A program made the translations under genes and the position numbers. A model generated the notes under the pieces. That model had not been told where the DNA came from and ran no database searches. It saw nothing but the letters and a program-made list of their open reading frames with translations. DNA of 64,000 nt, taken from positions 34,149 through 98,148 of the forward strand of contig JBNKTL010000005.1 of NCBI GenBank assembly GCA_050298055.1. The letters run 5' to 3'. Origin of the DNA: Spirochaetota bacterium (lineage in GTDB: Bacteria > Spirochaetota > UBA4802 > UBA5550). Below are positions 12,772-31,998 of the stretch, piece by piece (the first letter of the stretch is position 1; each line of letters begins with the position of its first letter).

Positions 12772-12828
12772 AGAGTCTCCTGAAACAGGTTATTGTCTCC
12801 TCTTGGCGCGGGTGATCGGTTTTCCCTG

Positions 12829-13236
12829 CTACTTGACGCCGCGGCTGATAAAAAAGCTGCTGTATTTTTTATCGGATCCCACAACATGGTCCTGGAGCCA
12901 GTCCACCAGGAAAGCAAGAAGTTCAAACGCATCAACACCTTTTCCTTCATCGAGGTCTTTTTTCAAGGATAAGACTTTTTTACTCAGCTCTTCATGTTCT
13001 TTCTTATGTGAGGCTTTATCAAAATAATGATGTTTTTCAAAAAGCTTCTCTTCATTATCAAAGTGATAATGAGTATAATCCAGCAGCTCCTGGATTATTT
13101 CAGATATCTTATCGGGACTGCCTCCCCCGGTAAGTACAGCATGAGCATTGTTAATAAGCTCGATAATTTTTTTGTGCTGAGCGTCCAGAGTATCAATCTC
13201 AACACGGAAGTTATCTTCCCATTCAAAAAAAGTCAT
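12829..13236 (-). CDS. hemerythrin-like (bacteriohemerythrin) protein
   Basis: WxDxxxV...IDxQHKxxxxLIN...HF..EE...H..F...H..F...WL..HI..D..Y spacing of His/Glu iron ligands characteristic of bacteriohemerythrins. 135 aa. Confidence 0.75.
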   Translation of the reverse strand: MTFFEWEDNFRVEIDTLDAQHKKIIELINNAHAVLTGGGSPDKISEIIQELLDYTHYHFDNEEKLFEKHHYFDKASHKKEHEELSKKVLSLKKDLDEGKGVDAFELLAFLVDWLQDHVVGSDKKYSSFFISRGVK

Positions 13237-13323
13237 ATAGTTACATCCTTTAATTTTTGTTTTTTATATTGTAACTACTCAGTTGTATGGCTGAAAATAA
13301 ACATATTTAATAAAATGCCAATA

Positions 13324-13359
13324 TTATGTCCCCGCCGCCGAAGGCGGTGGGGACATAAT
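13324..13359. repeat. family H hairpin repeat copy 3 (TTATGTCCCCGCCGCC-GAAG-GGCGGTGGGGACATAA)
   Basis: 16-bp stem (one G:T) with a 4-nt loop, between selA and the hemerythrin gene. Confidence 0.7.
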
Positions 13360-13429
13360 GGTTATCTTTTGTTCATTAACATATCTATTTTTATACATAG
13401 CTGAATAGTAACTTTATATTTTATAAAAA

Positions 13430-14815
13430 CTACGTAAACCTCTCGAGAAGTTCGTCAATGACAGATGCAATGTAGGAGATATCATCATCAAAAACAGTCA
13501 TAAAATCAAGAGTATACCTGTCGTTTATAATAGAACCTACAACCGGAAGGTTCAGTGAGATCATCCTGTTGTAGAGGTCATCCGGTTTTACTCCGGGAAG
13601 AAGTAATTCTACACCGGCGCTTTCAACTTCCAGGGTGGGAAGCGTACCGCCCCCGTAAGTGCTCATGGTGCTGACCCTTTTTACCCGGTCCTTTTTCAGG
13701 GGATTTTTGATATTCCTCATGAGTCTTGTTATTTTCCCGGAAAGGGATTTCTTGTCCTGAAAAATTGTGCTCCAGAGGGGAAGGTCCTCATGTTCTCCGT
13801 TATCATACAAAAGGAGTGTTTCCTGGATGATATAGTAGGTGATCTTATCCACCCTGATCATCCGCATGAGGGGATTTTTCCTGAGTCGGACAATCAGCTC
13901 CTTTTTCCCGATAATAATGCCCGCCTGGCATCCTCCCAGAAGTTTGTCTCCGCTGAAACATACCAGGTCCGCGCCCTGGGAAAGTTCCTGACCCACTGTC
14001 TGTTCAAAATTTGCCGGAAGTTCGCTGCCGGTAACGAGGTTACCGCTTCCCAGGTCCCTGACCAGGAGAATATGGTCGGTTTTCAGCTCTGAGAGTTCTT
14101 TTAACGATGGAGACCGGGAAAACCCCTCTATTTTATAATTGGACCGGTGTGCGGAGAATATCATTGATGTGTTCTCTGTTATACTGTTTTTATAATCATC
14201 CAGTTCGGTGATATTTGTTGTTCCCGTTTCAACAAGATGTGCCCCGCTCTGGTTCATGATATCGGGTATCCTGAATCCGCCCCCTATCTGGATCAGTTCA
14301 CCCCGGGAAACCACTGCTTCTCTCCCCCGGGCAAATTCATTGAGGATCAGGAACACCGATGAAGCGTTGTTATTGACGATGAGGGCGTCTTCGGCAGATG
14401 TGAGGTTGCAGATAAGTTCCTCTGCGAACCCGCCTCTTTTGCCCCTTTTCCCAGTTGTGAGCTGGTATTCCAGGTTGCAGTATCCTGAAAGTGCTTCGGC
14501 CGCCCGGGAGAAGATCTCCTTCCCGAGGGGTGACCTTCCGAGATTGGTGTGGATTATGACACCGGTACAGTTTATGACCTTCTGGAGTTTGTGGAGTTTT
14601 TTGATTCTGCAGTTTTTCACTATTGCCGGAACAAGCTTCTCTACCGGTACATCAGCGCCGTCCTGGATTTTTTTCCTGAAAAGGTCAATGACTTTTCGGA
14701 CGATACCGGTTACAAGCGAATGTCCTATTTCAGGAATAAAAGCAGCTATTTCATCATTCTGCAGCAGCTTTTCCACCTGGGGGATGTTGCGTAGGTTGTT
14801 CTGTGTGTCGTTCAT
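13430..14815 (-). CDS. selA: L-seryl-tRNA(Sec) selenium transferase SelA
   Basis: 461 aa. The INCTGVIIHTNLGRSPLG motif around the PLP-lysine region is typical of SelA. It is co-located with selB and tRNA-Sec. Confidence 0.9.
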   Translation of the reverse strand: MNDTQNNLRNIPQVEKLLQNDEIAAFIPEIGHSLVTGIVRKVIDLFRKKIQDGADVPVEKLVPAIVKNCRIKKLHKLQKVINCTGVIIHTNLGRSPLGKEIFSRAAEALSGYCNLEYQLTTGKRGKRGGFAEELICNLTSAEDALIVNNNASSVFLILNEFARGREAVVSRGELIQIGGGFRIPDIMNQSGAHLVETGTTNITELDDYKNSITENTSMIFSAHRSNYKIEGFSRSPSLKELSELKTDHILLVRDLGSGNLVTGSELPANFEQTVGQELSQGADLVCFSGDKLLGGCQAGIIIGKKELIVRLRKNPLMRMIRVDKITYYIIQETLLLYDNGEHEDLPLWSTIFQDKKSLSGKITRLMRNIKNPLKKDRVKRVSTMSTYGGGTLPTLEVESAGVELLLPGVKPDDLYNRMISLNLPVVGSIINDRYTLDFMTVFDDDISYIASVIDELLERFT

Positions 14816-18505: not shown

Positions 18506-19120
18506 ATGAACAAAAAATACATCATAAAAGCAAACTCCCTCTCAAAGAGGTTCGGGAGGCAGCGGCTTTTTAAAGAGATTAACTTCCGGGTTGAAACCGG
18601 GGGTTCTCTGGCTGTGACCGGGCCCAACGGGTCGGGGAAATCCACCCTGGTCCAGATACTGGCGGGGCTGCAGGCCCCCACAAAGGGGAAAGTGGAGTTC
18701 AGGCAGAATGACAGGGTGCTGGAGAAATATTCCCTGAACGCTCACTACGGATTTATCAGCCCCCTTATCAATCCCTACGATGAACTTACGGGAATTGAGA
18801 ATATCCGTTTCTCACTGAAAGGGGCCCCTGATGAGGAGAAGATCAAATCGCTCCTTGAGGACTTTAAACTCTTTGAACAGAGGAACAGGATCGTGCGGCA
18901 CTACTCATCGGGCATGAAACAGAGGCTCAAGTTCATCATATCCGTCATTAACGATCCCCCTGTTCTTTTTCTCGATGAACCGGGGACAAATCTTGACAGG
19001 GAGGGGAAGGAGACAATCTATTCATATATAAAGAACATAAGGAAAGATAAGCTGATTGTTATGGCCACCAACGAGAAGGAAGAGGTCAGGCTCTGCGGCG
19101 GGGAGGTCAGGATTGCTTGA
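18506..19120 (+). CDS. ccmA: heme exporter ATP-binding protein CcmA
   Basis: ABC ATPase (GPNGSGKSTL Walker A, LSGGMKQRL-like signature). Small size and position before ccmBC. Confidence 0.8.
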   Translation: MNKKYIIKANSLSKRFGRQRLFKEINFRVETGGSLAVTGPNGSGKSTLVQILAGLQAPTKGKVEFRQNDRVLEKYSLNAHYGFISPLINPYDELTGIENIRFSLKGAPDEEKIKSLLEDFKLFEQRNRIVRHYSSGMKQRLKFIISVINDPPVLFLDEPGTNLDREGKETIYSYIKNIRKDKLIVMATNEKEEVRLCGGEVRIA

Positions 19121-19775
19121 GGAGATTATCAGGAACCTGAAAAAGGACCTCAGGGTTGAGTTCAGAAACCGCTCGGCCCTGAATATTTCCCTGGCCTTCG
19201 CGGGGATATCGACCCTTGCAATAAGCCTGGCAACCGGCGGCGTCCCCTTTTCAGTGAAGCTCCAGGCGGTTCTCCTCTGGATCATCATGTTCTTCAGCGC
19301 CATGAACGGGCTGGCCCACATTTTCACCCGGGAAGAGGAGGAGAGGACCTCCCTTTTTCTCAGGCTAAATACCTCCCTGGAGTCCATATTCCTCTCAAAG
19401 CTGGTTTTTAACTTCCTTTTTTTTCTGGTTTTACAGATCGTCGTGTGCCCTCTCTATGTCTTTTTCCTGCAGATTGAGGTGAAATCGCCTCTTCTCTTCC
19501 TGCTCGTAGTCTTTTCAGGGGGGATATCCATATCCTCTGCCACCACAATACTGGGGGCCATGGTCTCCCGGGCGGGAGGCAAGGGGTCCCTTTTCACGGT
19601 GATCTCCTTTCCCATTATTCTGCCGGTCCTCTGGATCGCCATCTCCTCCACATCAGAGGCCCTGGAGAAAGGGGACGCGTCCGGGTACGGCACCATCCTT
19701 TTTTTCCTTGCATTTTCAGGTGTAATAATATCTTTATCATTTTTACTGTTCAGGTATATCTGGGTTGAAGAATGA
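19113..19775 (+). CDS. ccmB: heme exporter membrane protein CcmB
   Basis: Polytopic membrane protein directly between ccmA and ccmC. The ORF track begins at 19056, overlapping ccmA by 65 nt. The TTG at 19113 overlapping the ccmA stop is a more likely start, but that is uncertain. Confidence 0.7.
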   Translation: MLEEIIRNLKKDLRVEFRNRSALNISLAFAGISTLAISLATGGVPFSVKLQAVLLWIIMFFSAMNGLAHIFTREEEERTSLFLRLNTSLESIFLSKLVFNFLFFLVLQIVVCPLYVFFLQIEVKSPLLFLLVVFSGGISISSATTILGAMVSRAGGKGSLFTVISFPIILPVLWIAISSTSEALEKGDASGYGTILFFLAFSGVIISLSFLLFRYIWVEE

Positions 19776-20440
19776 AAATATCAAGAATTGCATACCTCCT
19801 GATGCCGGTATCTATCTACATGGCATTCATGTTCGCGCCCCCGGCTGAGATTCTCGGGGACGCAAGCCGGATAATCTATTTTCATGTGCCCCTGGCATGG
19901 GGGTCCGCGCTGGCTTTTATTTATTCGGGGATTGTTTCGATTCTCCACCTGGTTGATAAAGATAAGAAGTACATGCTGCTGGACGAGAAGGCGTATAATT
20001 CCGCCCATGTGGGGATGCTCTATACAATTCTCGCACTGATTACCGGCTCCATCTGGGCCAAGGTCAGCTGGGGGAGCTACTGGAACTGGGACCCCCGTCA
20101 GACCTCCATAACAGCGCTTGTCCTCATATACATCGCCTATTTCAGCCTCTGGTCCGCACTCTCCGGCAACGCGAACAGGGGGAGGATCTGTTCATCCTAC
20201 CTGATCTTTGCCATGGTTACCGTTCCCTTCTTTGTTTTCATTATACCGAGGATGTATCCCACATTGCACCCTGATCCGATTATTAACCCGGAGAAAAAAC
20301 TCAAACTTGACGTATCAATGAGGATAACCCTGCTTACGGCAATGGTTGCGTTTACTCTACTCTATACATATCTTTTGAGTCTCATGAACAGACTGTCACG
20401 GGCAGAGAATACATTTAAGGACAAGTTTGATGAAATATAG
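19772..20440 (+). CDS. ccmC: heme exporter protein CcmC
   Basis: WGSYWNWDPRQT tryptophan-rich WWD motif and flanking conserved His residues. 222 aa. Confidence 0.85.
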   Translation: MKISRIAYLLMPVSIYMAFMFAPPAEILGDASRIIYFHVPLAWGSALAFIYSGIVSILHLVDKDKKYMLLDEKAYNSAHVGMLYTILALITGSIWAKVSWGSYWNWDPRQTSITALVLIYIAYFSLWSALSGNANRGRICSSYLIFAMVTVPFFVFIIPRMYPTLHPDPIINPEKKLKLDVSMRITLLTAMVAFTLLYTYLLSLMNRLSRAENTFKDKFDEI

Positions 20441-20759
20441 AAGCGCAATAATTATTTTTTTCGTAACAATACACTTTCTTGCCTTCCCAATTAAGTTTCA
20501 AAAGCCCGGAGAGAAGCTGTCTCATACCGGTAAATGGGAAAATATCTGTGCCGGAACCGCATTTTCGAAGCTTTACGCGGATGAAAAAAAGAGTTCCGCT
20601 CAACCGGAAACAGCTGTAAAAGAAGAAGAGAGCCCGGAGAAGGGAAAGCTCTTCAAGGTCATGGTTGTTGTTATGGCCATATGGCTGGGACTGGCATTCT
20701 ACCTCTTCAGGCTCGACAAAAAAATTACCCGATTGGAGAAAGACGTTAATGAACTTTAA
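20427..20759 (+). CDS. CcmD-like small membrane protein (true start possibly internal, near 20661)
   Basis: The C-terminal 33 aa (MVVVMAIWLGLAFYLFRLDKKITRLEKDVNEL) resembles CcmD: one TM helix then a basic/acidic tail. The stop overlaps the ccmE start. Confidence 0.4.
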   Translation: MMKYRSAIIIFFVTIHFLAFPIKFQKPGEKLSHTGKWENICAGTAFSKLYADEKKSSAQPETAVKEEESPEKGKLFKVMVVVMAIWLGLAFYLFRLDKKITRLEKDVNEL

Positions 20760-21144
20760 GAGAATGGGAATTTTCCTGGGGGCAATGATTCTCCTCATCG
20801 TTGCCATATTGTCCCTGAGTGATGATGTAATGACCCCCTATGTTACGGTGGCCGAGGCAAAAGAGGCTTCCGGTAAACTGGTGCAGGTTATCGGCAAGCT
20901 TGATAAATCCGTACCCCGGAAGCATACGGAGAAGGAGCTCTTCTATACAATTATCGATGATAAAAAAGTAACCATGGACGTGGTCTATACAGGGATAAAA
21001 CCGCAGAACTTTGAGAGGGCCGACCAGATCGTTTCCCGGGGAAAGTATGATACCGGGAAAAATATCTTCGTGGCAGACAGGATCCTTGTAAAATGTCCGT
21101 CCAAGTATAAAGAAGAGCACCCGGAAAGGGTAAAGGGGAATTAA
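20749..21144 (+). CDS. ccmE: cytochrome c-type biogenesis heme chaperone CcmE, CxxxY variant
   Basis: N-terminal membrane anchor and OB-fold body. The C-terminal ILVKCPSKYKEEHPE aligns to the canonical VLAKHDENYTPPE heme-binding region with Cys (codon 21094..21096) in place of His. The ORF track starts at 20665; the ATG at 20749 overlapping the ccmD stop is preferred. Confidence 0.8.
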   Translation: MNFKRMGIFLGAMILLIVAILSLSDDVMTPYVTVAEAKEASGKLVQVIGKLDKSVPRKHTEKELFYTIIDDKKVTMDVVYTGIKPQNFERADQIVSRGKYDTGKNIFVADRILVKCPSKYKEEHPERVKGN

Positions 21145-21150
21145 ACGAAC

Positions 21151-23334
21151 ATGAATTTGGGAAATCTATTACTCTACGCGTCTCTTGCTGCATCCATGGC
21201 TGCGGTTTTCTTCTATTTACGGAATACCGGCGGCAGTGAGCCGGGCATCAATCTCTCAAGAAAGCTCTTTTACACGACAAGTCTCCTCATAGGAGCTGCT
21301 GTTATCCTGCTCCTTTTTTATTTTTTAAATAATGATTTCAGGTTCTCCTATGTGTATGCCTATTCCAACAGGGAACTTGAGTGGTACTACCTGGTGTCCG
21401 CCTTCTGGGCGGGCCAGCCCGGGAGTTTCCTCCTCTGGCTTTTTATCCTGAACATCTTCGGTATCTTTGTTATCAGGAAACATGATGAAGAAGAAAATAT
21501 TCTGATGACGGTAATGATACTGGTCCAGGTCGCAATAATTGTTCTGCTGGTTGTGGACAGTCCCTTTAAATATATCTGGGACCAGTACACGAACCTCAGG
21601 CCGGGAGAGTTTCCCCCGGACGGTTCGGGATTAAATCCCCTCCTTATTGACCCGTGGATGATTGTCCATCCGCCGGTCCTCTTTGTGGGTTATGCGTCCG
21701 CCACAGTCCCCTTCGCCTATACCATTGACGGTCTTATAAGAAAGGACTATACCTCGTGGATAAACAGGTCTTATAACTGGGTGATGTTCAGCTTTGTCTC
21801 CCTGGGAATCGGAATATTCCTGGGAGGATACTGGTCATACAAGGTCCTCGGATGGGGCGGTTACTGGGGATGGGACCCGGTGGAGAATTCCTCCCTTGTC
21901 CCCTGGCTTGTGGGCCTCATCCTCTTTCACAGCATGCTCCTTTACAGAAGAAAGAAAGTCCTGGTAAGAACAACCGTTCTCGCATCACTGTTGTACATTA
22001 TCTTTGTCTTCTACGGGACCTATCTTACCCGAAGCGGTATTCTCAAGGACTTTTCGGTCCATTCCTTCGGTGATTCGGTTATCGGGGTTTTCCTGGGTGT
22101 TTTTATTCTCCTCCTTATTGCCGTGAGCGGTTTTCTTTATGTTAAGCGGTTCAGGGACATGAAGCCCCTTTCACAGCCGGTTGACCAGAACCTCTTCAGC
22201 TGGGACACTCTCCTGGCCTATGGTCTTATCACGCTGGGGGTCTATACGTTCCTTATCCTGATTGGAACCTCCTGGCCCATCATTACCGGGATAATTTTAC
22301 CAAAGGCAATTGTTGTTACTGAGAAGTTCTATAACAGCATCTCCATACCCTTCGGGATACTCCTGCTGTTCCTTATGGTGTTTTCAACCCTGGCAGTTTC
22401 TTCAAAGAAACTCCTGGACATCAAGGATTTTGTTGCCATGGGCGGGGCAGTTGTCATTGCGGTTTTTTTCAACCTTATGTTTACCGATAAGATTGCGGCA
22501 TATGCTTTAACCGCTGTGTCCCTGTTTGTAGTCCTTGAATTTCTCTACGATTTTTCAAAGCTGAAACCTTCGGCGATTCTGGCATCCCGGCTCTCCCACA
22601 TTGGTCTTGGACTGATGGTTGTCGGTGTTATTACTTCAGGTTTTCATTCAACAACCGACCAGAAAAAGTTATTTCTCAACAGGCCTGAAACAGTTGGTGG
22701 TGTTAACCTGACCTTTAACGGCTTTACAAGGGAGAAGGAAGCATCAATGATCTTTACGCTGAGGGACGGTGATACTTCCCGGCGCATTGCCATGAAATAT
22801 TACATGTCAGAGAAGATGAAGTCCCTCTACAGGGAACCATATATAGATTACGGTTTTCTCGGAGATACCTACATTATCCCCGAGGATTACACACCGTCGT
22901 CAATTGCCGACAATAACGTGGTCCTGGCAAAGGGGCAGCAGCAGAATATCGGCGGTGTGGATGTTAAATTTCTTAAATTTGACGCACGGCAGATGAGGGC
23001 GGCGGAACCGGTCATCTACGCGGAACTTCTTGTAAACGGGAAACGGGTCAAACCCGGAATAAAGATTGATAAGCGAAAGGCAAACAGGATCGACGCGAAG
23101 GTCCCCGGGACAGACCGGGTCATTTCCCTTCTCAGAATCAATCCCAGCGATGAGCTGATAGATATATTTGTCAGTCCCGGTAAGGATGTTAAAGTGGTCC
23201 CCGACAGTGTCATCGTGAAAGTCTCGCATAAAAGGCTTATCTGGATTGTCTGGCTGGGGACAGTGTTAATAACAATTGGCGGCTGCTATGCGATTTACAG
23301 ACACAGGCCCGCGTCTGCCGCGAAAAATGCCTGA
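21151..23334 (+). CDS. ccmF: cytochrome c-type biogenesis protein CcmF (heme lyase component)
   Basis: 727 aa polytopic membrane protein with a WGGYWGWDPVEN WWD domain and a C-terminal periplasmic domain. Confidence 0.85.
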   Translation: MNLGNLLLYASLAASMAAVFFYLRNTGGSEPGINLSRKLFYTTSLLIGAAVILLLFYFLNNDFRFSYVYAYSNRELEWYYLVSAFWAGQPGSFLLWLFILNIFGIFVIRKHDEEENILMTVMILVQVAIIVLLVVDSPFKYIWDQYTNLRPGEFPPDGSGLNPLLIDPWMIVHPPVLFVGYASATVPFAYTIDGLIRKDYTSWINRSYNWVMFSFVSLGIGIFLGGYWSYKVLGWGGYWGWDPVENSSLVPWLVGLILFHSMLLYRRKKVLVRTTVLASLLYIIFVFYGTYLTRSGILKDFSVHSFGDSVIGVFLGVFILLLIAVSGFLYVKRFRDMKPLSQPVDQNLFSWDTLLAYGLITLGVYTFLILIGTSWPIITGIILPKAIVVTEKFYNSISIPFGILLLFLMVFSTLAVSSKKLLDIKDFVAMGGAVVIAVFFNLMFTDKIAAYALTAVSLFVVLEFLYDFSKLKPSAILASRLSHIGLGLMVVGVITSGFHSTTDQKKLFLNRPETVGGVNLTFNGFTREKEASMIFTLRDGDTSRRIAMKYYMSEKMKSLYREPYIDYGFLGDTYIIPEDYTPSSIADNNVVLAKGQQQNIGGVDVKFLKFDARQMRAAEPVIYAELLVNGKRVKPGIKIDKRKANRIDAKVPGTDRVISLLRINPSDELIDIFVSPGKDVKVVPDSVIVKVSHKRLIWIVWLGTVLITIGGCYAIYRHRPASAAKNA

Positions 23335-23390
23335 CCTGTTAAGGTGAGAACAGCCGGGCTGAGAGGGAATAAAGAGGGACGGGACACAGG

Positions 23391-24245
23391 ATGTTTAGTA
23401 TTTTATTTGCAATAACAATTATACTGTTTTCCACTACATCAGTATTGTGCATGATGGCGATTTACTCGGTCAATGAGAGATACCAGTGGATTATCCGGAT
23501 GCTCATTCCCGCTTCGGTCGTTTCATTTCTTTTCCTCGGATTTATGAGGGTCTATTATTCGGAGATAAACACCTTTTTCTATCTCGCATCGGCAATCTGG
23601 AGTTATTTCTACCTCTTTTCCCTGGTGCTTCTGCTGGTCCTTGTCTACCTCTTTTTCTCAAAGTGGAAAACATACTGGAAACCCTTTGTGGCATTGATGT
23701 TTCCCTTTGTTACGATCATTTTGCTCATATCAACACCCTTTATCAATTCAACGAGAAGGGTCTCAATCGATATAACCGGGAGTATTTTTGCCAACCACCT
23801 TCTTCCGGTCCATATATTTTTCACAATTGTGGGAGAGTTGTTTTTCTTTTTAAGTTTTGTGGGGTCAGTTCTCTACCTGGTCATGGAGTGGCAGTTGAGG
23901 CGAAAGGCTTCCATGAGGCTTATCTATAAGCTTCCCACTCTTGAAACAATTGAAAAGTTCAACATGTGGGCAATCATACGGTCATTTCTTCTTCTTACTA
24001 TCGGGCTTTACTTTGGGCTTACCATGGCTTTTACAAATTTCCACACACCGTTTATGGGTACGGCCAAGGAAATGCATATTTATTTTTCCTGGATCGTTAT
24101 CCTGGGGATTTTCTTTCTGAGGAGAATGAAAAAGCTTGTTTCCCACAAGGTGAACCTGATAAACGCGGTGCTTTTTCTCATTATTATGTTTCTCTTTATG
24201 TTCACGAATATATATATTACCAAGGGTTTTCACAGCTTCCAATAG
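23391..24245 (+). CDS. HemX-like membrane protein of the cytochrome c assembly (CcsA/ResC) family
   Basis: 284 aa, about 8 TM helices, Trp/aromatic-rich loops. It sits immediately upstream of and overlapping hemA, as in hemAX-type operons. Confidence 0.5.
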   Translation: MFSILFAITIILFSTTSVLCMMAIYSVNERYQWIIRMLIPASVVSFLFLGFMRVYYSEINTFFYLASAIWSYFYLFSLVLLLVLVYLFFSKWKTYWKPFVALMFPFVTIILLISTPFINSTRRVSIDITGSIFANHLLPVHIFFTIVGELFFFLSFVGSVLYLVMEWQLRRKASMRLIYKLPTLETIEKFNMWAIIRSFLLLTIGLYFGLTMAFTNFHTPFMGTAKEMHIYFSWIVILGIFFLRRMKKLVSHKVNLINAVLFLIIMFLFMFTNIYITKGFHSFQ

Positions 24246-24247
24246 AG

Positions 24248-25564
24248 ATGAATAAGGATACAAATAAATCAGAAACTCCGGAAGTGGGTCTTATCGGCAT
24301 GAGTCATAAAACTGCGCCGGTTGATCTCCGGGAGCAGTTTGCGTTTACTGACGAAGAGATATCAAAATACATGGACCTCCTGCATGACCAAGGGATTGAA
24401 GAGACCGTATGTGTGTCAACATGCAACAGGGTGGAGATCTATTTTGCTTCCAGCAATGTCCGGGAAGCAGCGGAGCATATCATGAAGCTCCTGGAGGAGA
24501 AATCACAGACCAGCAGGAAGAAATTCGAAAAGATCCTCTATAAAAAGTATTCAAAAGATGCCATTAACCATGCAATGATGGTCTCCGCTTCACTGGATTC
24601 CCTGGTTGTGGGAGAGGATGAGATCCTGGGACAGATGAAGGACGCGTACAGGAAGTCAGCGGGAGAGAAGAGAACCGGGCAGGTCCTCAACAGGCTTTTT
24701 CACACTGCTTTTAAAACAGCAAAAAAGATACGGACTGAGACCGAGATAGCCCGCAACCCCCTTTCCGTGGCGTATATTGCAACCGAACTGGCAATGAAGG
24801 TGTTCGAGGATATCTCCAAGAGGAAGGCCCTGCTCATTGGCGCAGGTGAGATGGGTGAACTTATTCTCAAGTATCTTACAAAGTACAATATCAGCGAGAT
24901 ATTCCTGGCAAACAGGTCGTTCCACAACGCGGAAAAAATCGCGCAGGAGATCAACAGGGACGCCCACATAATACCCCTGGAGGACATTACCGATGTGGCC
25001 GGCAAGGTTGATATTATCGTCTCATCTGTTTCTGTTCCGGAGTATATATTCAATACCGAAATGGGCAGGGAGGTTACCCGGGAAAGGGGGGACCAGCCCC
25101 TCTTTATGATAGACATATCCATACCCAGAAGTCTCGACCCGGGCCTTTCCGGAATGGACAATATATTTCTCTACAATGTTGATGACCTTCAGACAATTGC
25201 GGACGAAAATTTAAAGAACAGGCTGAAAGAAGTTGACCTTGCCCGGCAGCTTATCGAATCTGATGTGGATGAATTCTTTGCCTGGTATGAGGGACTGGTT
25301 GTGGTACCGGCAATTGTCTGTATACAGGAGAAGTTTGATGAGATAAGGTGCCGGGAACTGGGAAAGTACCGGAAGAGAAAACTGAAACACCTCTCTGACG
25401 AAGATTTCAAGCTCATAGAGGACCTGACGAACCAGATCATGACCAAGACATTGCATAATCCCATCATGTTTTTGAGAAGCTTTAATGCCGCGGACGATGA
25501 TGAAAAAAAGGCCATAAAAGAGAACGTGAAGATCATTGAAGACCTCTTCCGGATGAGGGCATAA
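24248..25564 (+). CDS. hemA: glutamyl-tRNA reductase HemA
   Basis: VGLIGMSHKTAPVDLREQFAF and CNRVEIY (catalytic Cys) motifs, and a GAGEMG NADPH-binding site. The ORF track starts at 23966, but the ATG at 24248 gives the canonical N-terminus. Confidence 0.9.
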   Translation: MNKDTNKSETPEVGLIGMSHKTAPVDLREQFAFTDEEISKYMDLLHDQGIEETVCVSTCNRVEIYFASSNVREAAEHIMKLLEEKSQTSRKKFEKILYKKYSKDAINHAMMVSASLDSLVVGEDEILGQMKDAYRKSAGEKRTGQVLNRLFHTAFKTAKKIRTETEIARNPLSVAYIATELAMKVFEDISKRKALLIGAGEMGELILKYLTKYNISEIFLANRSFHNAEKIAQEINRDAHIIPLEDITDVAGKVDIIVSSVSVPEYIFNTEMGREVTRERGDQPLFMIDISIPRSLDPGLSGMDNIFLYNVDDLQTIADENLKNRLKEVDLARQLIESDVDEFFAWYEGLVVVPAIVCIQEKFDEIRCRELGKYRKRKLKHLSDEDFKLIEDLTNQIMTKTLHNPIMFLRSFNAADDDEKKAIKENVKIIEDLFRMRA

Positions 25565-25655
25565 ATTTTCCATTACATCACTTCGTTCCACATGATGACA
25601 GGGTCTTCAGCTTGAAACTCGAAACTTGGAACTAAACTTATAACGGATAGATTTT

Positions 25656-26558
25656 ATGAAAATACGAATTGGAACCAGGGGAAGCCAGCTGGCCCTCTGG
25701 CAGGCGGAACATGTAGCGGGCCTTCTCGGAAGAGAGAAAACGGAAATTGTTATTATCAAGACTAAGGGTGACCGGATACTCAATGTCTCCTTTGACAAGA
25801 TGGAGGGGAAGGGCTTCTTTACAAAGGAGATCGAGGCGGCACTTCTGGAGAACAGGGTTGACCTTGCCGTTCATTCTCTCAAGGACCTTCCCACCGAGAG
25901 CGTACCGGAACTGACCGTTGCCGCCATACCTCCCCGGGAAGAGCCGTGGGATGTCCTCCTTATAAGAAAGGAAGCGCATGAAGAGACAGGTGACTTCCCG
26001 GTGAAAAAGGGGGCCGTGGTGGGAACAAGTTCCCTGAGAAGACTGGCACAGCTGAAGTATAAACGAAACGACCTCACTGTCAAAGCCCTCAGGGGCAACG
26101 TGAATACCCGGCTGCGAAAACTTAACGAAGGAGAGTACGATGCCATTGTACTGGCCTATGCGGGGATGAAGAGGGTGGACCTTGATACAACCGGCCTGGA
26201 AGTTTTTACCATACCCCCGGATATTTTTCTCCCCGCCCCGGCACAGGGCGCCCTGGGCCTCCAGACGAGGAGGGAGGACCTGCGAACCATCAAGGCTGTA
26301 GAGCACCTGAACCATGGTGACACCGTTCGCGCGGTGACCGCGGAAAGGGCCTTCCTTCACCACTTTGGCGGAGGCTGTCACATCCCCCTGGGATCACTTG
26401 CCCTTATTGAGGATGACGAGATATCCATGCAGGGGATCGTGGCATCAACCGACGGCAGGACCGCTTTGAAGGACACGGTCCGCGGGAAAGACCCCGGGAG
26501 AGCGGGACTTGAACTGGCAAAAAAACTAAAAGAGAAAGGGGCCGATAAGCTCCTCTGA
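25656..26558 (+). CDS. hemC: hydroxymethylbilane synthase (porphobilinogen deaminase) HemC
   Basis: MKIRIGTRGSQLALWQAEHV N-terminus and the cofactor-binding C-terminal domain with conserved Cys (GGGCHIPLG). Confidence 0.9.
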   Translation: MKIRIGTRGSQLALWQAEHVAGLLGREKTEIVIIKTKGDRILNVSFDKMEGKGFFTKEIEAALLENRVDLAVHSLKDLPTESVPELTVAAIPPREEPWDVLLIRKEAHEETGDFPVKKGAVVGTSSLRRLAQLKYKRNDLTVKALRGNVNTRLRKLNEGEYDAIVLAYAGMKRVDLDTTGLEVFTIPPDIFLPAPAQGALGLQTRREDLRTIKAVEHLNHGDTVRAVTAERAFLHHFGGGCHIPLGSLALIEDDEISMQGIVASTDGRTALKDTVRGKDPGRAGLELAKKLKEKGADKLL

Positions 26559-26586
26559 TACGAACAGGGAGAGAGAAGACAGCAGG

Positions 26587-27354
26587 ATGGATAAAAAGCC
26601 TCTCTACGGGAAAAAGATAGCCGTAACCAGGAACAGGGAGCAGGCGGGGTTCCTTGTTGAGATGCTTGCGTCCCGTGGCGCGGATGTCATTGAATTTCCT
26701 ACCATTGAGGTAAAGCCCCTTGATGACCTTTCCGGCCTTGAAAAAGCCATAAGCGAGATCGAGAGTTTTCACTGGATCTTTCTAACGTCCCGGAACGCGG
26801 TCACGGTTTTTTTTGATAAACTGAAAGAGATGGGTCTTCCCAGGGAAAGTCTTACCGGTACCGGTTTTGCTGCTGTGGGGCCCGCAACAGCAAGGTGCCT
26901 TGAAAGTTACGGGATAAAGCCGGAACTTGTTCCCGATGAATTTGTCGCCGAAGGACTGGTTGAAGCATCGGCCAGGACCGGTGTCAGCGGGAAGAAGATC
27001 CTCCTGCCGTCGGCTGCGGGGGCCCGGGATGTTCTTGCAGGGGGCCTCAGGGATCTCGGGGCGGACGTGGTGCGGATAAACACGTACCATTCGGTAAAAC
27101 CGGAATCGGCCCCCGCGAAGAGGGTCAGGGCCGTAAAGGAGGCGGATGTCATTACCCTTACCAGCTCCTCAACGGCGGAAAACCTCTTCTCCCTTGTCCC
27201 GGATATATCGAGTATCTACGCGTGCATCGGTCCCGCCACGGCGGATACCGTGAGAAAACTTGGCCGCGAGCCGCATATTATTGCCGGGGAGTATACACTG
27301 GCGGGACTTGTGGATGCCATTGTTGACTACTATTCGGGTATAATTGAATTGTGA
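26587..27354 (+). CDS. hemD: uroporphyrinogen-III synthase HemD
   Basis: 255 aa HEM4-family two-domain protein (VTRNREQAGFLVEMLASRGADVIEFPTIE) placed between hemC and hemB. Confidence 0.75.
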   Translation: MDKKPLYGKKIAVTRNREQAGFLVEMLASRGADVIEFPTIEVKPLDDLSGLEKAISEIESFHWIFLTSRNAVTVFFDKLKEMGLPRESLTGTGFAAVGPATARCLESYGIKPELVPDEFVAEGLVEASARTGVSGKKILLPSAAGARDVLAGGLRDLGADVVRINTYHSVKPESAPAKRVRAVKEADVITLTSSSTAENLFSLVPDISSIYACIGPATADTVRKLGREPHIIAGEYTLAGLVDAIVDYYSGIIEL

Positions 27355-27421
27355 TTGAAAATTATTAACTCACTTGCAATTATGAATGCCTTTTCAAAAT
27401 ATTTTAAATGGAGGAAACCAG

Positions 27422-28393
27422 ATGGACCTTGTCAACAGACCCCGGCGATTGAGGAAAAACAGTATTATCAGAGACCTGACCGCGGAGACCATTCTGGATA
27501 CCCGGAAACTGATATTCCCCTACTTTGTCACCGAAGGAAGCAGGATAAGAACACCTATCGAATCCATGCCGGGGATAGACAGGGTCTCCGTGGACAATCT
27601 CCTGAAAGACCTGGAGGGCGACCATAAGCGGGGAATTAATACCATCCTCCTCTTCGGAATTCCCCACAAAAAGGATGAAACGGGGACCGGGGCGTATTCT
27701 GACAGCGGGATCGTCCAGAAAGCGGTGAGGGAGATAAAGAAGAACTTTCCCGGTGTCTATGTGATTACCGACGTCTGTCTCTGTGAATTTACCGATCACG
27801 GGCACTGCGGAATTGTCAGAGACGGGGACGTTTTAAACGATCCCACACTGGAGCTTCTCAGCAGGACCGCGGTCTCCCAGGCCATGGCGGGGGCCGATAT
27901 GGTTGCGCCCTCTGACATGATGGACGGACGGGTGGGAGCAATACGGGAGGCCCTGGACGCCAAAGGGCTGACAGATGTGCCCATAATGTCCTATGCCGCC
28001 AAGTACAGCTCCGCCTTTTACGGCCCCTTCAGGGACGCCGCGGGGAGCGCCCCGCAGTTCGGGGACCGGAGAAGCTACCAGATGGATTTCAGGAACGGGA
28101 TAGAGGCGGAAAAGGAGGTCCTCATGGATATCGATGAGGGGGCCGATATTGTCATGGTGAAGCCGGCACTCTCCTACCTTGATATAATCTCCCGGGTCAA
28201 AGACATCGTGGACCTGCCGGTCTGCGCCTATAATGTCAGCGGCGAATACTCCATGGTAAAGGCCGCGGCGAAGCTGGGCATGGGTGACGAGGAGAGACTC
28301 ACCGTTGAGATCCTGGGATCGATTTTCCGGGCGGGTGCTGACATGATCATAACATACCATGCCCGGGATGTACTGAAGAATGGCTGGTTTTAA
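27422..28393 (+). CDS. hemB: porphobilinogen synthase (delta-aminolevulinate dehydratase) HemB
   Basis: RPRRLRK N-terminus, ITDVCLCEFTDHGHCG (Zn-Cys site), active-site Lys regions. The ATG at 27422 follows a GGAGG Shine-Dalgarno; the ORF track starts at 27386. Confidence 0.9.
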   Translation: MDLVNRPRRLRKNSIIRDLTAETILDTRKLIFPYFVTEGSRIRTPIESMPGIDRVSVDNLLKDLEGDHKRGINTILLFGIPHKKDETGTGAYSDSGIVQKAVREIKKNFPGVYVITDVCLCEFTDHGHCGIVRDGDVLNDPTLELLSRTAVSQAMAGADMVAPSDMMDGRVGAIREALDAKGLTDVPIMSYAAKYSSAFYGPFRDAAGSAPQFGDRRSYQMDFRNGIEAEKEVLMDIDEGADIVMVKPALSYLDIISRVKDIVDLPVCAYNVSGEYSMVKAAAKLGMGDEERLTVEILGSIFRAGADMIITYHARDVLKNGWF

Positions 28394-28410
28394 GAGAGGA
28401 AGAAATTAAA

Positions 28411-28558
28411 CATGAAGTGCACGAAGCAAGAGTTTTATAATGTTAAGTTTTAAATTTTGAATGTTAAATTAAAGAAATCGTTTTTGATTAGATAATTCAA
28501 AATTAAAAATTTAACATTCAACATTATCCGAAACTTCATGTACTTCGTGTACTTCGTG
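28411..28558. repeat. long imperfect palindrome / structured AT-rich element between hemB and hemL
   Basis: CATGAAGTGCACGAAG...AATGTTAAGTTTTAAATTTTGAATGTTAAATT is mirrored by AATTAAAAATTTAACATTCAACATT...CTTCATGTACTTCGTGTACTTCGTG. The second half includes a 2x TACTTCGTG direct repeat. Confidence 0.55.
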
Positions 28559-28614
28559 GTGAAAAAATCTTAAAAAGAAATTTTTTATATGAAAAAAAAC
28601 AACCGGAGCAATAA

Positions 28615-29904
28615 ATGAATAGGGAAAAATCAGAAAGGTTATACACTGAAGCACTGAATTACATGCCGGCGGGTGTTAACTCCCCTGTCAGGGCTTTCCG
28701 GTCCGTGGGGGGCACACCGGTTTTCATGAAGAGCGGCAGCGGATCACATCTTGTTGATGAAGACGGCAATGAGTATATTGACTACTGCATGTCGTGGGGA
28801 CCCATGATCCTGGGGCACGCGGACAGGGACATTATTGAAGCGGTCAGGGAAGCGGCCCTGAAGGGGACCAGCTTTGGTACACCTAACAGGTATGAGGTTG
28901 AACTGTCAAAAGGGGTAACAGGGGCCTTCCCTTCCATGGAGAAGGTCCGGTTTGTCAATTCGGGAACAGAGGCGACCATGTCGGCCATAAGGCTTGCCCG
29001 GGGTTACACCGGCAGGGACAGGATCGTAAAGTTTGACGGCTGTTATCACGGCCATGCTGATTTTCTCCTCGTTGCCGCAGGTTCGGGACTTGCGACCTTC
29101 GGGGCCCCCGATTCAGCCGGTGTTACCGCGGACAATGCAAAGGACACACTTGTGGTCCCCTATAACGATATTGAAGGCCTGGAAAAACTTCTTGAACAAG
29201 AGGGAAAGAATACCGCGGCCATAATCCTTGAGCCTGTTCCCTGTAACTATGGTCTCATCCTTCCCAACAGAGGTTACCTGGAAAAACTGAGGGAACTCTG
29301 TGACAGATATGGGATCGTTCTGATATTCGATGAGGTCATAAACGGTTTCCGGCTCGCTTTGGGAGGTGCCCAGGAATACTATGGTGTAAAGGCTGACCTG
29401 ACGACCCTGGGGAAGATAATCGGTGGCGGCCTTCCCGTTGGCGCCTACGGGGGAAAAAAGGAGATCATGGACAAAATTGCCCCTGACGGTCCCGTGTACC
29501 AGGCAGGAACACTCTCGGGAAATCCTCTTGCAATGACGGCGGGAATTGTCACACTGAAAAAACTTGGCGGCGGAAATATTTATCCTGAACTGAAGAAGAA
29601 GGGTGAGTCTCTGAAGAAAAAGCTGGAACCTGTTTTGGACCGGTACAGGGGGAAGGTGCTCTACCAGGAGCTGGAATCAATATTTTCGCTCTATTTTACT
29701 GACCGGGAGGTCATTACCTCCGTGGACCAGGTGAGAGGGTGTGATATGAAGAAGTTCGGTGAGTTCCATTCCCGGATGCTTTCCCGGGGGATCTATCTCT
29801 CACCTTCAGGATATGAAGTGGGCTTTCTCTCAACTGTGCATACCGAGGAAGATCTTGACAGGACAGCAGTTGCAGTTGAGGAATCGTTAAAGGCTATTTT
29901 CTGA
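28615..29904 (+). CDS. hemL: glutamate-1-semialdehyde 2,1-aminomutase HemL
   Basis: Class-III aminotransferase with LIFDEVINGFRLALGGAQEYYGV and the PLP-lysine region GKIIGGGLPVGAYGG. 429 aa. Confidence 0.9.
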   Translation: MNREKSERLYTEALNYMPAGVNSPVRAFRSVGGTPVFMKSGSGSHLVDEDGNEYIDYCMSWGPMILGHADRDIIEAVREAALKGTSFGTPNRYEVELSKGVTGAFPSMEKVRFVNSGTEATMSAIRLARGYTGRDRIVKFDGCYHGHADFLLVAAGSGLATFGAPDSAGVTADNAKDTLVVPYNDIEGLEKLLEQEGKNTAAIILEPVPCNYGLILPNRGYLEKLRELCDRYGIVLIFDEVINGFRLALGGAQEYYGVKADLTTLGKIIGGGLPVGAYGGKKEIMDKIAPDGPVYQAGTLSGNPLAMTAGIVTLKKLGGGNIYPELKKKGESLKKKLEPVLDRYRGKVLYQELESIFSLYFTDREVITSVDQVRGCDMKKFGEFHSRMLSRGIYLSPSGYEVGFLSTVHTEEDLDRTAVAVEESLKAIF

Positions 29905-29976
29905 TTTTTATTTATGGTTTTTAACTTAATTCAATGTAAAAGATATTTTAAACATTTTAATAAAAGGAGTTTCAAT

Positions 29977-30465
29977 GTGAAAATAAGAAGTTGTATAATA
30001 GCAGTGATGGCAGTGACCTCGATGGCAGTTTTCGGATGCAAGGATAAAGCTCCGGACGGCAACCAGGGACTTCCCAAGGGTCATCCTGCTCTTGATATGC
30101 AGTCGCATCCCAAAATTGATACAAAATCAGAAATAAAAATTGCTCCGGGATCAATAGAGAAGGCCTCCGGAGGATACACTGTTTCGGAAATCTTTGGGAA
30201 AAAAGCCGCTCTGAACGGCAAGAGCGTAAAGGTCAGGGGGACGGTCACTAAATTCAATGCTAATATTATGAGCAGAAACTGGCTGCATCTGCAGGATGGA
30301 ACCGGTGGTCCCGGTGAAAACGACCTGACGGTCACAACAATCAGCAAGGCCGCAGTAGGCCAGAGAGTCCTCATTGAAGGAAAGCTTACTCTTGATAAGG
30401 ACTTTGGTGCCGGCTATAAGTATCCCGTTATCGTGGAAGGAGCTACCGTCACAGTAGAAAAGTAG
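29977..30465 (+). CDS. putative OB-fold lipoprotein (YgiW/BOF-like), hypothetical
   Basis: GTG start after an AAAGGAG Shine-Dalgarno (ATG-TGA directly precedes it), signal peptide with lipobox AVFGC. The C-terminal domain has the GKSVKVRGTVTKF...WLHLQDGTG...RVLIEGKL pattern reminiscent of BOF/YgiW OB-folds. Confidence 0.4.
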   Translation: MKIRSCIIAVMAVTSMAVFGCKDKAPDGNQGLPKGHPALDMQSHPKIDTKSEIKIAPGSIEKASGGYTVSEIFGKKAALNGKSVKVRGTVTKFNANIMSRNWLHLQDGTGGPGENDLTVTTISKAAVGQRVLIEGKLTLDKDFGAGYKYPVIVEGATVTVEK

Positions 30466-31073: not shown

Positions 31074-31125
31074 TCCAACAAACTGAATTTTAAAATTTCC
31101 CTTGTTATTTATAGGATCAAAGAGA

Positions 31126-31998
31126 ATGGATATACAACTGAAGGGTCCAAAACTCTCCAGGTTTAAAATAAAAACCCTTATCTATTTCAAAGCGCTGGCT
31201 GTCTTTTTGTTGACATTTCTCATTCTTTTTCTGCTCATAAAAGGGATTCGAAGCTTCTCAGAGTATCGAGAGTGGAAACACGCAGTTAAAACTATCCCAG
31301 AAAAAGAGATCAGAAAACTTGAAATGGTAAAGAAACAGTTCAGCTATGAACAGGTGATCCAGACATGGTATGTCCCCCCGTATAAGGAATGGTTGAAACC
31401 GATTAACTGGCTGATCTATTCGGAAAACTGCATATTATGTGGAAAACTCAATGTCATGAAGTTTGTGGGAATGATCCCGGGGGAGTGGACAGTTAAGGAT
31501 TTCAAAAAAAAACTGGAAGGATTTGATTTTGCAAATGAATGGGCACTTCACACGGGAAAGTATCCCATAACTGACAGGATTTTGTCTGATGTAAGCAGAA
31601 GGCTAACCGGGAACAGGTCCATTAAGTACAGGTGGTATTCCATTAAAAACCTGGATGAACTCATTTACCTGGCAAGGAGAGGGCACCATGTCTTTATCTA
31701 TACGCAGGTCTGGCTGGGGCCGTCAAAGAAATACCCGAAAGCAGTAAAGTATCTTGGAAAGAACTATTCACATGCGTGCACAATTACCGGAATTAAATCC
31801 TATGATCCCGTGGAGGATATCATCGAGTTTTCCGTAAATGAGACCCTGCCCGCCACGGAATTCACATACACACCGGTATACAGTAAGCTTAAAAAAAAGG
31901 ATGGATGTAATCTCTTTGACAGACAGAGTGTTCCCTATATAATTCCCTCGGGAGATTTAGCACGATCAGGATATGTTATCAGGGTTGAGGATGAGTAA
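31126..31998 (+). CDS. hypothetical membrane-anchored protein, possibly papain-like (C39-like) peptidase fold
   Basis: N-terminal TM helix. The Cys (ENCILCGKLNVMKFVG)...His (RRGHHVFIYTQVW)...Asp (YDPVEDII) order and spacing resemble C39-like peptidases, but this is weak hand alignment only. The start could be the TTG at 31102. Confidence 0.3.
   Translation: MDIQLKGPKLSRFKIKTLIYFKALAVFLLTFLILFLLIKGIRSFSEYREWKHAVKTIPEKEIRKLEMVKKQFSYEQVIQTWYVPPYKEWLKPINWLIYSENCILCGKLNVMKFVGMIPGEWTVKDFKKKLEGFDFANEWALHTGKYPITDRILSDVSRRLTGNRSIKYRWYSIKNLDELIYLARRGHHVFIYTQVWLGPSKKYPKAVKYLGKNYSHACTITGIKSYDPVEDIIEFSVNETLPATEFTYTPVYSKLKKKDGCNLFDRQSVPYIIPSGDLARSGYVIRVEDE

What the first reader, a model, noticed from the sequence alone, without database searches (positions are those of the whole stretch)
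20749..21144. CcmE with Cys in place of the heme-binding His (CxxxY variant)
The C-terminal ILVKCPSKYKEE aligns with the canonical VLAKHDENY, putting Cys (21094..21096) at the covalent heme-attachment position. This CxxxY subclass has been described for Desulfovibrio and some archaea and fits the anaerobic, deltaproteobacterial-like gene content here. The ccm operon lacks ccmG/ccmH in this window.
Basis: partly seen in the sequence, partly recalled or inferred. Interest (0 to 1): 0.5.

Follow-up and report, generated by a model that had tools for sequence, protein, structure and literature searches.

The report
Cysteine-type CcmE haem chaperone
This gene encodes the haem chaperone CcmE in its already described cysteine form ("System I*", motif CPSKY), sitting in an ordinary ccmABCDEF operon, so it is a correct but unsurprising observation.

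Summary
ORF 20749..21144 (+) encodes a 131-aa CcmE (Pfam PF03100, 61.8 bits). Its only cysteine, Cys116 (TGT, 21094..21096), aligns with the haem-binding His130 of E. coli CcmE and with Cys127 of Desulfovibrio vulgaris CcmE. Tyr120 aligns with E. coli Tyr134. C-P-S-K-Y is invariant in 27 of 27 aligned homologues. The tail His124 is not conserved. The predicted structure is a membrane-anchored OB fold and matches solved CcmE structures.

The gene lies in a ccmA-B-C-D-E-F operon. CcmC and CcmF keep their WWD motifs and haem-ligand histidines. No CcmG, CcmH or CcmI was found anywhere in the 64-kb window.

This is the published "System I*" variant (Allen 2006; Goddard 2010). The CPSKY motif itself was reported in a 2011 review. 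The variant is also very common. More than 580 species genomes carry the motif, and there are 908 clusters at 50% identity.

The nearest relatives are Spirochaetota metagenome-assembled genomes (MAGs), not Deltaproteobacteria. Absence of CcmH is not a defining trait of the variant, and I could not test it genome-wide.

Verdict: new member of a known kind, low interest.

The parts
20749..21144 (+). ccmE. Encodes a 131-aa haem chaperone of the Cys class (System I*). It has an N-terminal membrane anchor (about residues 3-27), an OB-fold domain (about 44-115) and a C-terminal tail carrying CPSKY.
   Evidence: Pfam PF03100, 61.8 bits. PDB alignments. AlphaFold2 model with pLDDT 86, helix 3-27 and five strands. 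Foldseek top hit is 8ce8_E; 1lm0/1j6q reach target-normalised TM-score 0.68-0.70. Hydropathy profile.
21094..21096 (+). TGT codon for Cys116, the predicted haem-attachment residue. It is equivalent to E. coli CcmE His130, D. vulgaris Cys127 and M. acetivorans Cys120.
   Evidence: Invariant in homologues.
21106..21108 (+). TAT codon for Tyr120, the predicted haem-iron ligand. It is equivalent to E. coli CcmE Tyr134.
   Evidence: Invariant in 28 of 28 aligned sequences, including E. coli.
18506..19120 (+). ccmA, the ABC ATPase subunit
   Evidence: PF00005, E = 5.5e-25. Gene call in the public contig. Conserved order ccmABC(D)EF in related loci.
19113..19775 (+). ccmB, the ABC membrane subunit. 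The start is taken from the public gene call; the longest ORF starts at 19056.
   Evidence: PF03379 CcmB, E = 2.5e-18..
19772..20440 (+). ccmC. Its WWD motif WGSYWNWDPRQT lies at residues 100-111 (20069..20104). His38 and His166 align with E. coli CcmC His60 and His184.
   Evidence: PF01578, E = 3.7e-24. Residue mapping.
20430..20759 (+). ccmD of the 'CcmD_alt' type. The C-terminal transmembrane segment (about residues 73-96) is the conserved part. The roughly 70-aa N-terminal extension contains a second hydrophobic segment.
   Evidence: PF20077, 36.3 bits, and TIGR04391, 32.5 bits; both above cutoff..
21151..23334 (+). ccmF, encoding a 727-aa haem lyase. The WWD motif WGGYWGWDPVEN lies at residues 235-246 (21853..21888). 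His173, His304, His260 and His483 align with E. coli P-His1, P-His2, TM-His1 and TM-His2. The protein has no CxxC.
   Evidence: PF01578 and PF16327. 6zmq CcmF, E = 6.4e-50. Residue mapping. Cysteine census.
23391..24245 (+). CcsA-family membrane protein without a WWD motif (HemX-like). It links the ccm genes to the hem genes and is context, not shown to be part of the maturation system.
   Evidence: PF01578, 30.1 bits. CcsB model 32.6 bits against a cutoff of 187.6. Found only in the window lineage and L003.
24248..29904 (+). hemA-hemC-hemD-hemB-hemL, covering glutamyl-tRNA to uroporphyrinogen III. These lie directly downstream on the same strand.
   Evidence: Pfam GlutR_N, Porphobil_deam, HEM4, ALAD and Aminotran_3. 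Start codon. Synteny with L003.
39190..40278 (+). Multihaem cytochrome c with 13 CxxCH motifs. It is a likely substrate of the Ccm system.
   Evidence: Motif scan. Cytochrome_C7, MtrC-like and c3 domains.
40523..41866 (-). Predicted cytochrome c with 4 CxxCH motifs. It is a likely substrate.
   Evidence: Motif scan. Weak cytochrome family hits.

Best explanation
The gene encodes the periplasmic, membrane-anchored haem chaperone CcmE of a cytochrome c maturation System I of the variant 'System I*' type.

Proposed sequence of events:
1. CcmC binds haem b on the outer face of the membrane, using its WWD motif and His38/His166. CcmD and the ABC ATPase CcmAB work with it.
2. Haem is passed to CcmE. 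The thiol of Cys116 takes the role of the canonical His130 and bonds to a haem vinyl group, most likely as a thioether. Tyr120 ligates the iron.
3. ATP hydrolysis by CcmA releases holo-CcmE.
4. Holo-CcmE docks on CcmF, which has its own WWD motif, two periplasmic His ligands and two transmembrane His residues that hold a reducing haem b.
5. CcmF transfers the haem to the CxxCH motifs of secreted apocytochromes, such as the 13-haem and 4-haem proteins encoded 18 kb downstream. It does so apparently without an operon-encoded CcmG, CcmH or CcmI.

Shown here: family membership, fold, residue equivalences, motif conservation, operon make-up, and absence of G/H/I from the window.

Inferred from published work on D. 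desulfuricans and M. acetivorans: covalent Cys-haem attachment and independence from CcmH.
For: - CcmE family match and fold.
- Cys116 aligns with His130 (E. coli) and Cys127 (D. vulgaris); Tyr120 aligns with Tyr134.
- CPSKY is invariant in 27 of 27 homologues. A C-P-x-[KR]-Y motif is present in 145 of 149 cluster representatives.
- The operon is complete as ccmABCDEF, and all catalytic signatures of CcmC and CcmF are intact.
- The same gene order is seen in most of about 80 loci from other phyla.
- Cytochrome c substrates lie in the window.
- The 2011 review describes System I* with a Cys-CcmE that binds haem covalently and works in E. coli without CcmH or CcmG. It reports CPSKY as the majority motif (PMC3601427).
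- In M. acetivorans, C120A abolishes haem binding by CcmE, and no holo-cytochrome c is detected with the C120A or C120H allele (PMC9084895).
Against: - No experiment exists for this protein.
- The chemistry is contested even in the model organisms. D. vulgaris CcmE was reported to bind ferric haem non-covalently through Cys127 in vitro (PMC3884852, citing Aramini 2012).
- The 2011 review notes that it is not obvious how a stable thioether would be broken for transfer.
- ccmG, ccmH, ccmI or ccdA may lie elsewhere in the genome. About one third of bacteria with the Cys-type CcmE have CcmH. Only 64 kb was examined.
Confidence: 0.88

Rival explanations
1. Same protein and pathway, but haem is carried non-covalently. 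Cys116 thiolate and Tyr120 act only as iron or haem ligands, and no Cys-vinyl bond forms during the cycle.
For: D. vulgaris CcmE (CPSKY type, PDB 2kct) is reported to bind ferric haem non-covalently through C127 (PMC3884852). The 2011 review questions the reversibility of a thioether.
Against: D. desulfuricans CcmE was shown to bind haem covalently via Cys (Goddard 2010, as summarised). M. acetivorans CcmE gives a haem-stained band on denaturing gels, and C120A abolishes it. The in vitro D. vulgaris work used a truncated soluble domain without CcmABCD.
Confidence: 0.2
2. The system is not minimal. ccmH, ccmG, ccmI and ccdA are encoded elsewhere in the genome, and this Cys-type CcmE hands haem to a CcmF/H complex as in canonical System I.
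For: About one third of bacteria with the Cys-type CcmE contain CcmH (PMC3601427). One related locus has a CcmG-like thioredoxin just downstream of ccmF (L072, Herpetosiphon; E = 3e-15). Only 64 kb of the genome was seen.
Against: No CcmH-like ORF turned up in about 80 related loci with flanks of up to 10 kb, using phmmer with E. coli CcmH or the LRCxxC motif. No Ccm protein in the operon has a CxxC. No recurrent neighbour family is shared by more than 15 loci. The single E. coli query has limited sensitivity.
Confidence: 0.3
3. The cysteine is an artefact: a sequencing error, a pseudogene, or a real haem-binding His lying elsewhere in the tail.
For: A His (H124) does exist 8 residues after the Cys.
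Against: TGT to CAT/CAC needs two base changes. The identical protein occurs on 3-4 independent contigs. CPSKY is invariant in all homologues. H124 is missing from a 79%-identical homologue, and 23 of 27 tails have no His. The ORF is intact and translationally coupled to ccmD, with ccmF starting 7 bases after its stop codon.
Confidence: 0.01
4. The cluster is a specialised NrfE-type lyase set dedicated to an unusual haem motif, rather than the general maturation system.
For: The best NCBIfam hit of the CcmF is the NrfE subfamily model TIGR03145 (279.8 bits).
Against: That score is far below the model's cutoff of 927. The general CcmF/NrfE model scores similarly (264 bits). No NrfF, NrfG or NrfA is nearby. 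A full ccmABCDE set accompanies it. No second maturation system is visible in the window. The nearby cytochromes use ordinary CxxCH.
Confidence: 0.04

Closest known systems
System I* CcmE of Desulfovibrio desulfuricans / D. vulgaris (PDB 2kct; Allen et al. 2006, Goddard et al. 2010, Aramini et al. 2012)
   Same: Cys replaces the haem-binding His. The K-C-P motif context is the same, and CPSKY is the majority motif of the class. It has an OB fold, CcmD is present in the system, and the operon has no CcmH or CcmG.
   Different: Sequence similarity is low (19.6 bits by phmmer, 33.5 bits by profile). The host lineage differs (Spirochaetota-like MAGs). No CcmI-like TPR protein was found in the window, whereas CcmI enhances the Desulfovibrio system. 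Here the ccm genes are fused to a hemX-hemACDBL block.
Archaeal streamlined Ccm system (Methanosarcina acetivorans CcmABCEF, CcmE Cys120; PMC9084895)
   Same: CXXXY CcmE with an essential Cys. There is no CcmH or CcmI. CcmF keeps its WWD motif and His ligands.
   Different: The archaeal system lacks CcmD, has a split CcmF1/F2, and its genes are scattered. The window has a CcmD_alt, a single 727-aa CcmF and one contiguous operon.
Canonical System I CcmE (E. coli CcmE His130; PDB 1sr3, 8ce8; Shewanella 1j6q/1lm0)
   Same: Same Pfam family, membrane anchor, OB fold, position between ccmD and ccmF, and a conserved Tyr four residues after the attachment residue.
   Different: His is replaced by Cys, with the motif CPSKY instead of HDENY. 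The NCBIfam equivalog models built on the canonical type score only 20-45 bits against cutoffs of 126-310. E. coli needs CcmG and CcmH, which sit in the same operon.

Membership tests
CcmE (Pfam PF03100) | Sequence match to the family model above its gathering score | tested here: met
   61.8 bits against a cutoff of 24.6, E = 8.6e-17, covering profile positions 6-98 of 99
CcmE (Pfam PF03100) | Single N-terminal transmembrane anchor followed by a periplasmic OB-fold beta-barrel | tested here: met
   Hydrophobic stretch at residues 3-29. AlphaFold2 gives helix 3-27 and five strands, pLDDT 86. Foldseek hits are 8ce8_E (top), 1lm0, 1j6q and 1sr3.
CcmE (Pfam PF03100) | Flexible C-terminal tail with the haem-attachment residue followed by xxxY | tested here: met
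   C116-P-S-K-Y120 aligns with E. coli H130-D-E-N-Y134. pLDDT drops after about residue 120.
CcmE (Pfam PF03100) | Encoded within a ccm operon next to ccmC/ccmD and ccmF | tested here: met
   ccmA-B-C-D-E-F at 18506..23334. The same order occurs in related loci.
CcmE (Pfam PF03100) | Binds haem and delivers it to apocytochrome c | not testable with these tools
   Needs haem staining, mass spectrometry and complementation.
System I* (Cys-type CcmE variant) | Cysteine at the position of the haem-binding histidine | tested here: met
   Cys116. The column reads C in 27 of 27 homologues and H only in E. coli.
System I* (Cys-type CcmE variant) | CPSKY majority motif with retained Tyr | tested here: met
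   CPSKY at residues 116-120. The motif is described in PMC3601427.
System I* (Cys-type CcmE variant) | No CcmH or CcmG. This was the original description, but the 2011 review says it is not characteristic. | tested here: inconclusive
   None in the 64-kb window and none next to about 80 related loci except one CcmG-like gene.
Canonical (His-type) System I CcmE | Histidine in the LAKHDENY motif | tested here: not met
   Cys at that column. The only tail His (H124) is not conserved.
Canonical (His-type) System I CcmE | Reaches the NCBIfam CcmE equivalog cutoffs | tested here: not met
   The best model, NF009727, scores 44.6 bits against a cutoff of 126.

The most novel reading that the evidence does not exclude
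The genome may truly lack CcmG, CcmH, CcmI and CcdA. This Spirochaetota-affiliated, Wood-Ljungdahl-type anaerobe would then mature multihaem cytochromes with only CcmABCDEF. That six-gene set is transcriptionally welded to haem-precursor synthesis (hemX-hemACDBL, with ahbD nearby). It would be a natural minimal bacterial System I*, in which CcmF alone acts as the synthase and a Cys-haem adduct must be resolved without any thiol-redox helper.
Probability: 0.3. Interest if true: 0.3.

Novelty: new member of a known kind. Interest (0 to 1): 0.15.

Why it matters
It matters little as a discovery. The Cys-type CcmE, its CPSKY motif and CcmH/CcmG-less operons have been in the literature since 2006-2011 and were confirmed genetically in archaea in 2022.

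Two modest points have some value.
- The variant is far more widespread in bacteria than the phrase "a few bacteria like Desulfovibrio" suggests. I found it in Spirochaetota, Acidobacteriota, Zixibacteria, Ignavibacteria, Calditrichota, Eisenbacteria, Chloroflexota and others. More than 580 species genomes carry it, and there are 908 clusters at 50% identity.
- This lineage offers a compact ccmABCDEF-hemX-hemACDBL block. That block could serve as a minimal bacterial test system for the open question of how a Cys-haem bond on CcmE is formed and broken.

Tried and rejected
- I tried to read Goddard 2010 (PMC2906280) and Aramini 2012 (PMC3366507) directly. Neither is held, so their content is cited through PMC3601427, PMC3884852 and PMC9084895.
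- I tried to get an organism name for the window by exact protein look-up. No names are recorded. Lineage is therefore inferred from the nearest named loci and from synteny with L003.
- I looked for a recurrent unknown neighbour gene that might replace CcmH, by all-against-all clustering of non-ccm ORFs within 6 kb of the ccm genes in about 78 loci. No family occurs in more than 15 loci, and many clusters are overlapping-frame artefacts of high-GC loci.
- I scanned related loci for CcmH with E. coli CcmH (phmmer) and the LRCxxC motif. Only E. coli itself scored, and the other motif hits lie in spurious frames. This is a single-query search with limited sensitivity.
- I considered whether the 80-aa longer CcmF or the HemX-like paralogue carries a thiol-redox module. 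Neither has a CxxC. The HemX-like gene is confined to this lineage.
- I considered an NrfE-type specialised lyase and rejected it on scores and context.
- I considered the tail His124 as the true haem ligand and rejected it because it is not conserved.

Full report
**Observation**

The ORF at 20749..21144 (+) starts with ATG and ends with TAA. A GGAG sequence lies about 9 nt upstream. The start overlaps the stop of the preceding small gene, and the next gene starts 7 bases after its stop codon. It encodes 131 residues.

The sequence ILVKCPSKYKEE occupies residues 112-123 (21082..21117). Tyr120 is the TAT at 21106..21108. Cys116 is the only cysteine in the protein.

**Identity of the protein**

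The protein matches Pfam CcmE (PF03100) with 61.8 bits against a gathering score of 24.6.

HMMER alignments to solved structures place 'ilvkCpskY' on E. coli CcmE 'vlakHdenY' (1sr3, 8ce8) and on Desulfovibrio vulgaris CcmE 'lmtkCP' (2kct). MAFFT maps E. coli His130 to Cys116 and Tyr134 to Tyr120, both pairwise and in a 28-sequence alignment.

An AlphaFold2 model built on 27 homologues has a mean pLDDT of 86. It shows an N-terminal helix (residues 3-27, the membrane anchor), a five-stranded barrel, and a less confident C-terminal tail. Foldseek against the PDB returns E. coli CcmE in the CcmABCDE complex (8ce8_E) as the top hit. The Shewanella and E. coli CcmE NMR structures also match (1lm0/1j6q with target-normalised TM-score 0.68-0.70; 1sr3), alongside generic OB folds.

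**Is the cysteine real and conserved?**

In 27 homologues down to 33% identity, C116, P117, S118, K119 and Y120 are all invariant. These homologues come from independent NCBI, JGI, ENA and Logan assemblies.

The only histidine in the tail, H124, is replaced by Asn in a 79%-identical homologue. 23 of the 27 tails contain no His at all.

A full HMMER pass over 1.84 billion representatives at 50% identity finds 908 clusters at E <= 0.001. Of the best 149, 145 carry C-P-[S/T/H]-[K/R]-Y and none has His. The other four are truncated or have lost the motif.

They span Spirochaetota, Acidobacteriota/Thermoanaerobaculia, Zixibacteria, Ignavibacteria, Calditrichota, Eisenbacteria, Herpetosiphon and a Selenomonadaceae genome, among others.

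**Context**

The gene is fifth in a co-directional, tightly packed operon.

| Gene | Coordinates | Note |
|---|---|---|
| ccmA | 18506..19120 | |
| ccmB | 19113..19775 | |
| ccmC | 19772..20440 | |
| ccmD | 20430..20759 | 'CcmD_alt' type, PF20077/TIGR04391 |
| ccmE | 20749..21144 | |
| ccmF | 21151..23334 | 727 aa |

- **CcmC:** the WWD motif is retained, and His38 and His166 align with E. coli His60 and His184.
- **CcmF:** WGGYWGWDPVEN is retained, and all four functional histidines are present (173, 260, 304, 483, matching E. coli 173, 261, 303, 491). It matches the Thermus CcmF structure 6zmq at E = 6.4e-50.
- **Thiol-redox motifs:** none of the six Ccm proteins has a CxxC motif.

Directly downstream come a CcsA-family paralogue without a WWD motif (HemX-like, 23391..24245) and hemA, hemC, hemD, hemB and hemL (24248..29904). 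An AhbD haem b synthase lies at 35644..36705 (TIGR04545, 503 bits against a cutoff of 500). A 13-haem cytochrome (39190..40278) and a 4-haem cytochrome (40523..41866, minus strand) are obvious substrates.

The rest of the window encodes selA and selB, NuoE/F-like flavoprotein subunits and a Wood-Ljungdahl cluster. The host is therefore an anaerobe.

**CcmG, CcmH and CcmI**

Pfam and NCBIfam scans of every large ORF in the window found no CcmH, no CcmG-type thioredoxin and no TPR CcmI. Six-frame scans for WCxxC and LRCxxC found none either.

Across about 80 related loci with flanks of up to 10 kb, the dominant order is ccmABC(D)EF. E. coli CcmH as a phmmer query finds nothing but itself. E. coli CcmG finds one convincing neighbour, in Herpetosiphon (L072, E = 3e-15). 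Clustering of the remaining neighbour ORFs reveals no recurrent family that could stand in for CcmH.

The rest of this genome could not be searched. Genome-wide absence therefore remains untested.

**Lineage**

The exact protein is on public contigs, for example GCA_050292195.1 JBNKLE010000004.1, but carries no name.

The closest named loci are Spirochaetes/Spirochaetota and 'Leptospirales' MAGs at 44-60% identity. One of them, L003, is syntenic across nuoF-like, fer2, ccmABCDEF, hemX and hemACDBL, with 43-81% amino-acid identity.

'Anaerobic' is.

**Comparison with what is known**

The literature held here describes this system directly.

- The 2011 review 'Cytochrome c biogenesis System I' (PMC3601427) names the variant System I*. 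It attributes its discovery to genome analysis (Allen et al. 2006).
- The same review reports that the Desulfovibrio operon makes holocytochrome c in E. coli without CcmH and CcmG, using a Cys-CcmE that binds haem covalently (Goddard et al. 2010).
[quoted passage not shown] - PMC3884852 notes the 2kct structure and the conflicting report of non-covalent binding via C127 in D. vulgaris.
- PMC9084895 shows genetically that C120 of the CXXXY motif is required in Methanosarcina acetivorans, and that CcmABCEF suffices there.

The window's protein meets every testable defining feature of CcmE and of the Cys class. It fails the His-class features: there is no His at the column, and the NCBIfam equivalog scores of 20-45 bits fall far below the cutoffs of 126-310.

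**Mechanism**

I consider the following most likely. CcmABCD loads haem onto CcmE. Cys116 bonds to a vinyl group and Tyr120 ligates the iron. After ATP-dependent release, CcmF accepts and reduces the haem and attaches it to CxxCH motifs.

The residue equivalences, fold and operon make-up are shown here. The covalent thioether and independence from CcmH are inferred from the Desulfovibrio and Methanosarcina experiments. The covalent-versus-non-covalent question remains open in the field.

**Verdict**

The observation and interpretation are essentially right. This is a routine member of a known, very widespread variant, and its interest is low. The only mildly new elements are the host lineage and the physical fusion of the ccm operon with the haem-precursor operon.

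Noticed in passing
window 35644..36705 (+): A radical SAM/SPASM protein reaches the equivalog cutoff for AhbD haem b synthase (TIGR04545, 503 bits against 500). This implies the sirohaem-dependent haem route, the same route used by Desulfovibrio and archaea, where Cys-type CcmE was first described. A possible co-variation of Ahb with System I* was not tested.
   Followed up: partly
window 18506..29904 (+); L003 7743..19634: ccmABCDEF is followed without a break by a CcsA-family paralogue lacking the WWD motif (HemX-like, 23391..24245) and by hemA-C-D-B-L. The whole block, plus the upstream nuoF-like and fer2 genes, is syntenic in a Spirochaetes MAG at 43-81% amino-acid identity. The HemX-like gene was found only in this lineage.
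   Followed up: partly
window 20430..20759 (+): CcmD is of the CcmD_alt type. It carries a roughly 70-residue N-terminal extension with a second hydrophobic segment (residues 6-24). Similarly long ORFs (98-126 aa) occur in the Spirochaetota-type loci L003, L004, L005, L008, L010, L012, L013 and L015. Other phyla have forms of 45-65 aa.
   Followed up: partly
window 2578..8268 (+): A 1896-aa ORF has no Pfam family at E <= 0.01 (a single 13.9-bit DUF2460 match at E = 0.036, far below its cutoff). It lies downstream of an M23 peptidase gene.
   Followed up: no
window 37676..39178 (+), 39190..40278 (+), 40523..41866 (-): A 500-aa protein with no family match sits immediately upstream of a 13-haem cytochrome c. 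A 4-haem cytochrome with weak MtrC-like similarity lies convergent to them. This may be an extracellular electron-transfer module.
   Followed up: no
window 29914..30465, 31102..31998, 32019..33569 (+), 34436..35218 (-): Four ORFs of 183-516 aa lie between the hem genes and ahbD. None matches a Pfam family, and the three scanned against NCBIfam (29914, 31102, 32019) match nothing there either.
   Followed up: no
window 36808..37398 (-): An IS200-like Y1 transposase (PF01797) lies between ahbD and the cytochrome genes.
   Followed up: no
window 10954..14815 (-) and 42674..63049 (+): The window holds selenocysteine machinery (selB, selA) with a hemerythrin gene between them, and a complete-looking Wood-Ljungdahl cluster. 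The cluster includes FTHFS, cooC-like, FolD, CODH/ACS subunits, a corrinoid protein, a methyltransferase, HdrC/B-like proteins, a 1492-aa HdrA/GltD-like fusion, and MetV/MetF.
   Followed up: no
PDB 9hcj_R0 residues 1576-1650 (not in the window): The CcmE profile and the predicted structure both hit a domain of Dictyostelium Nup160 (profile E = 8.6e-4; Foldseek E = 4.9e-4). It is an OB-like domain ending in 'vLcK', reminiscent of the CcmE barrel. This is probably just fold similarity.
   Followed up: no
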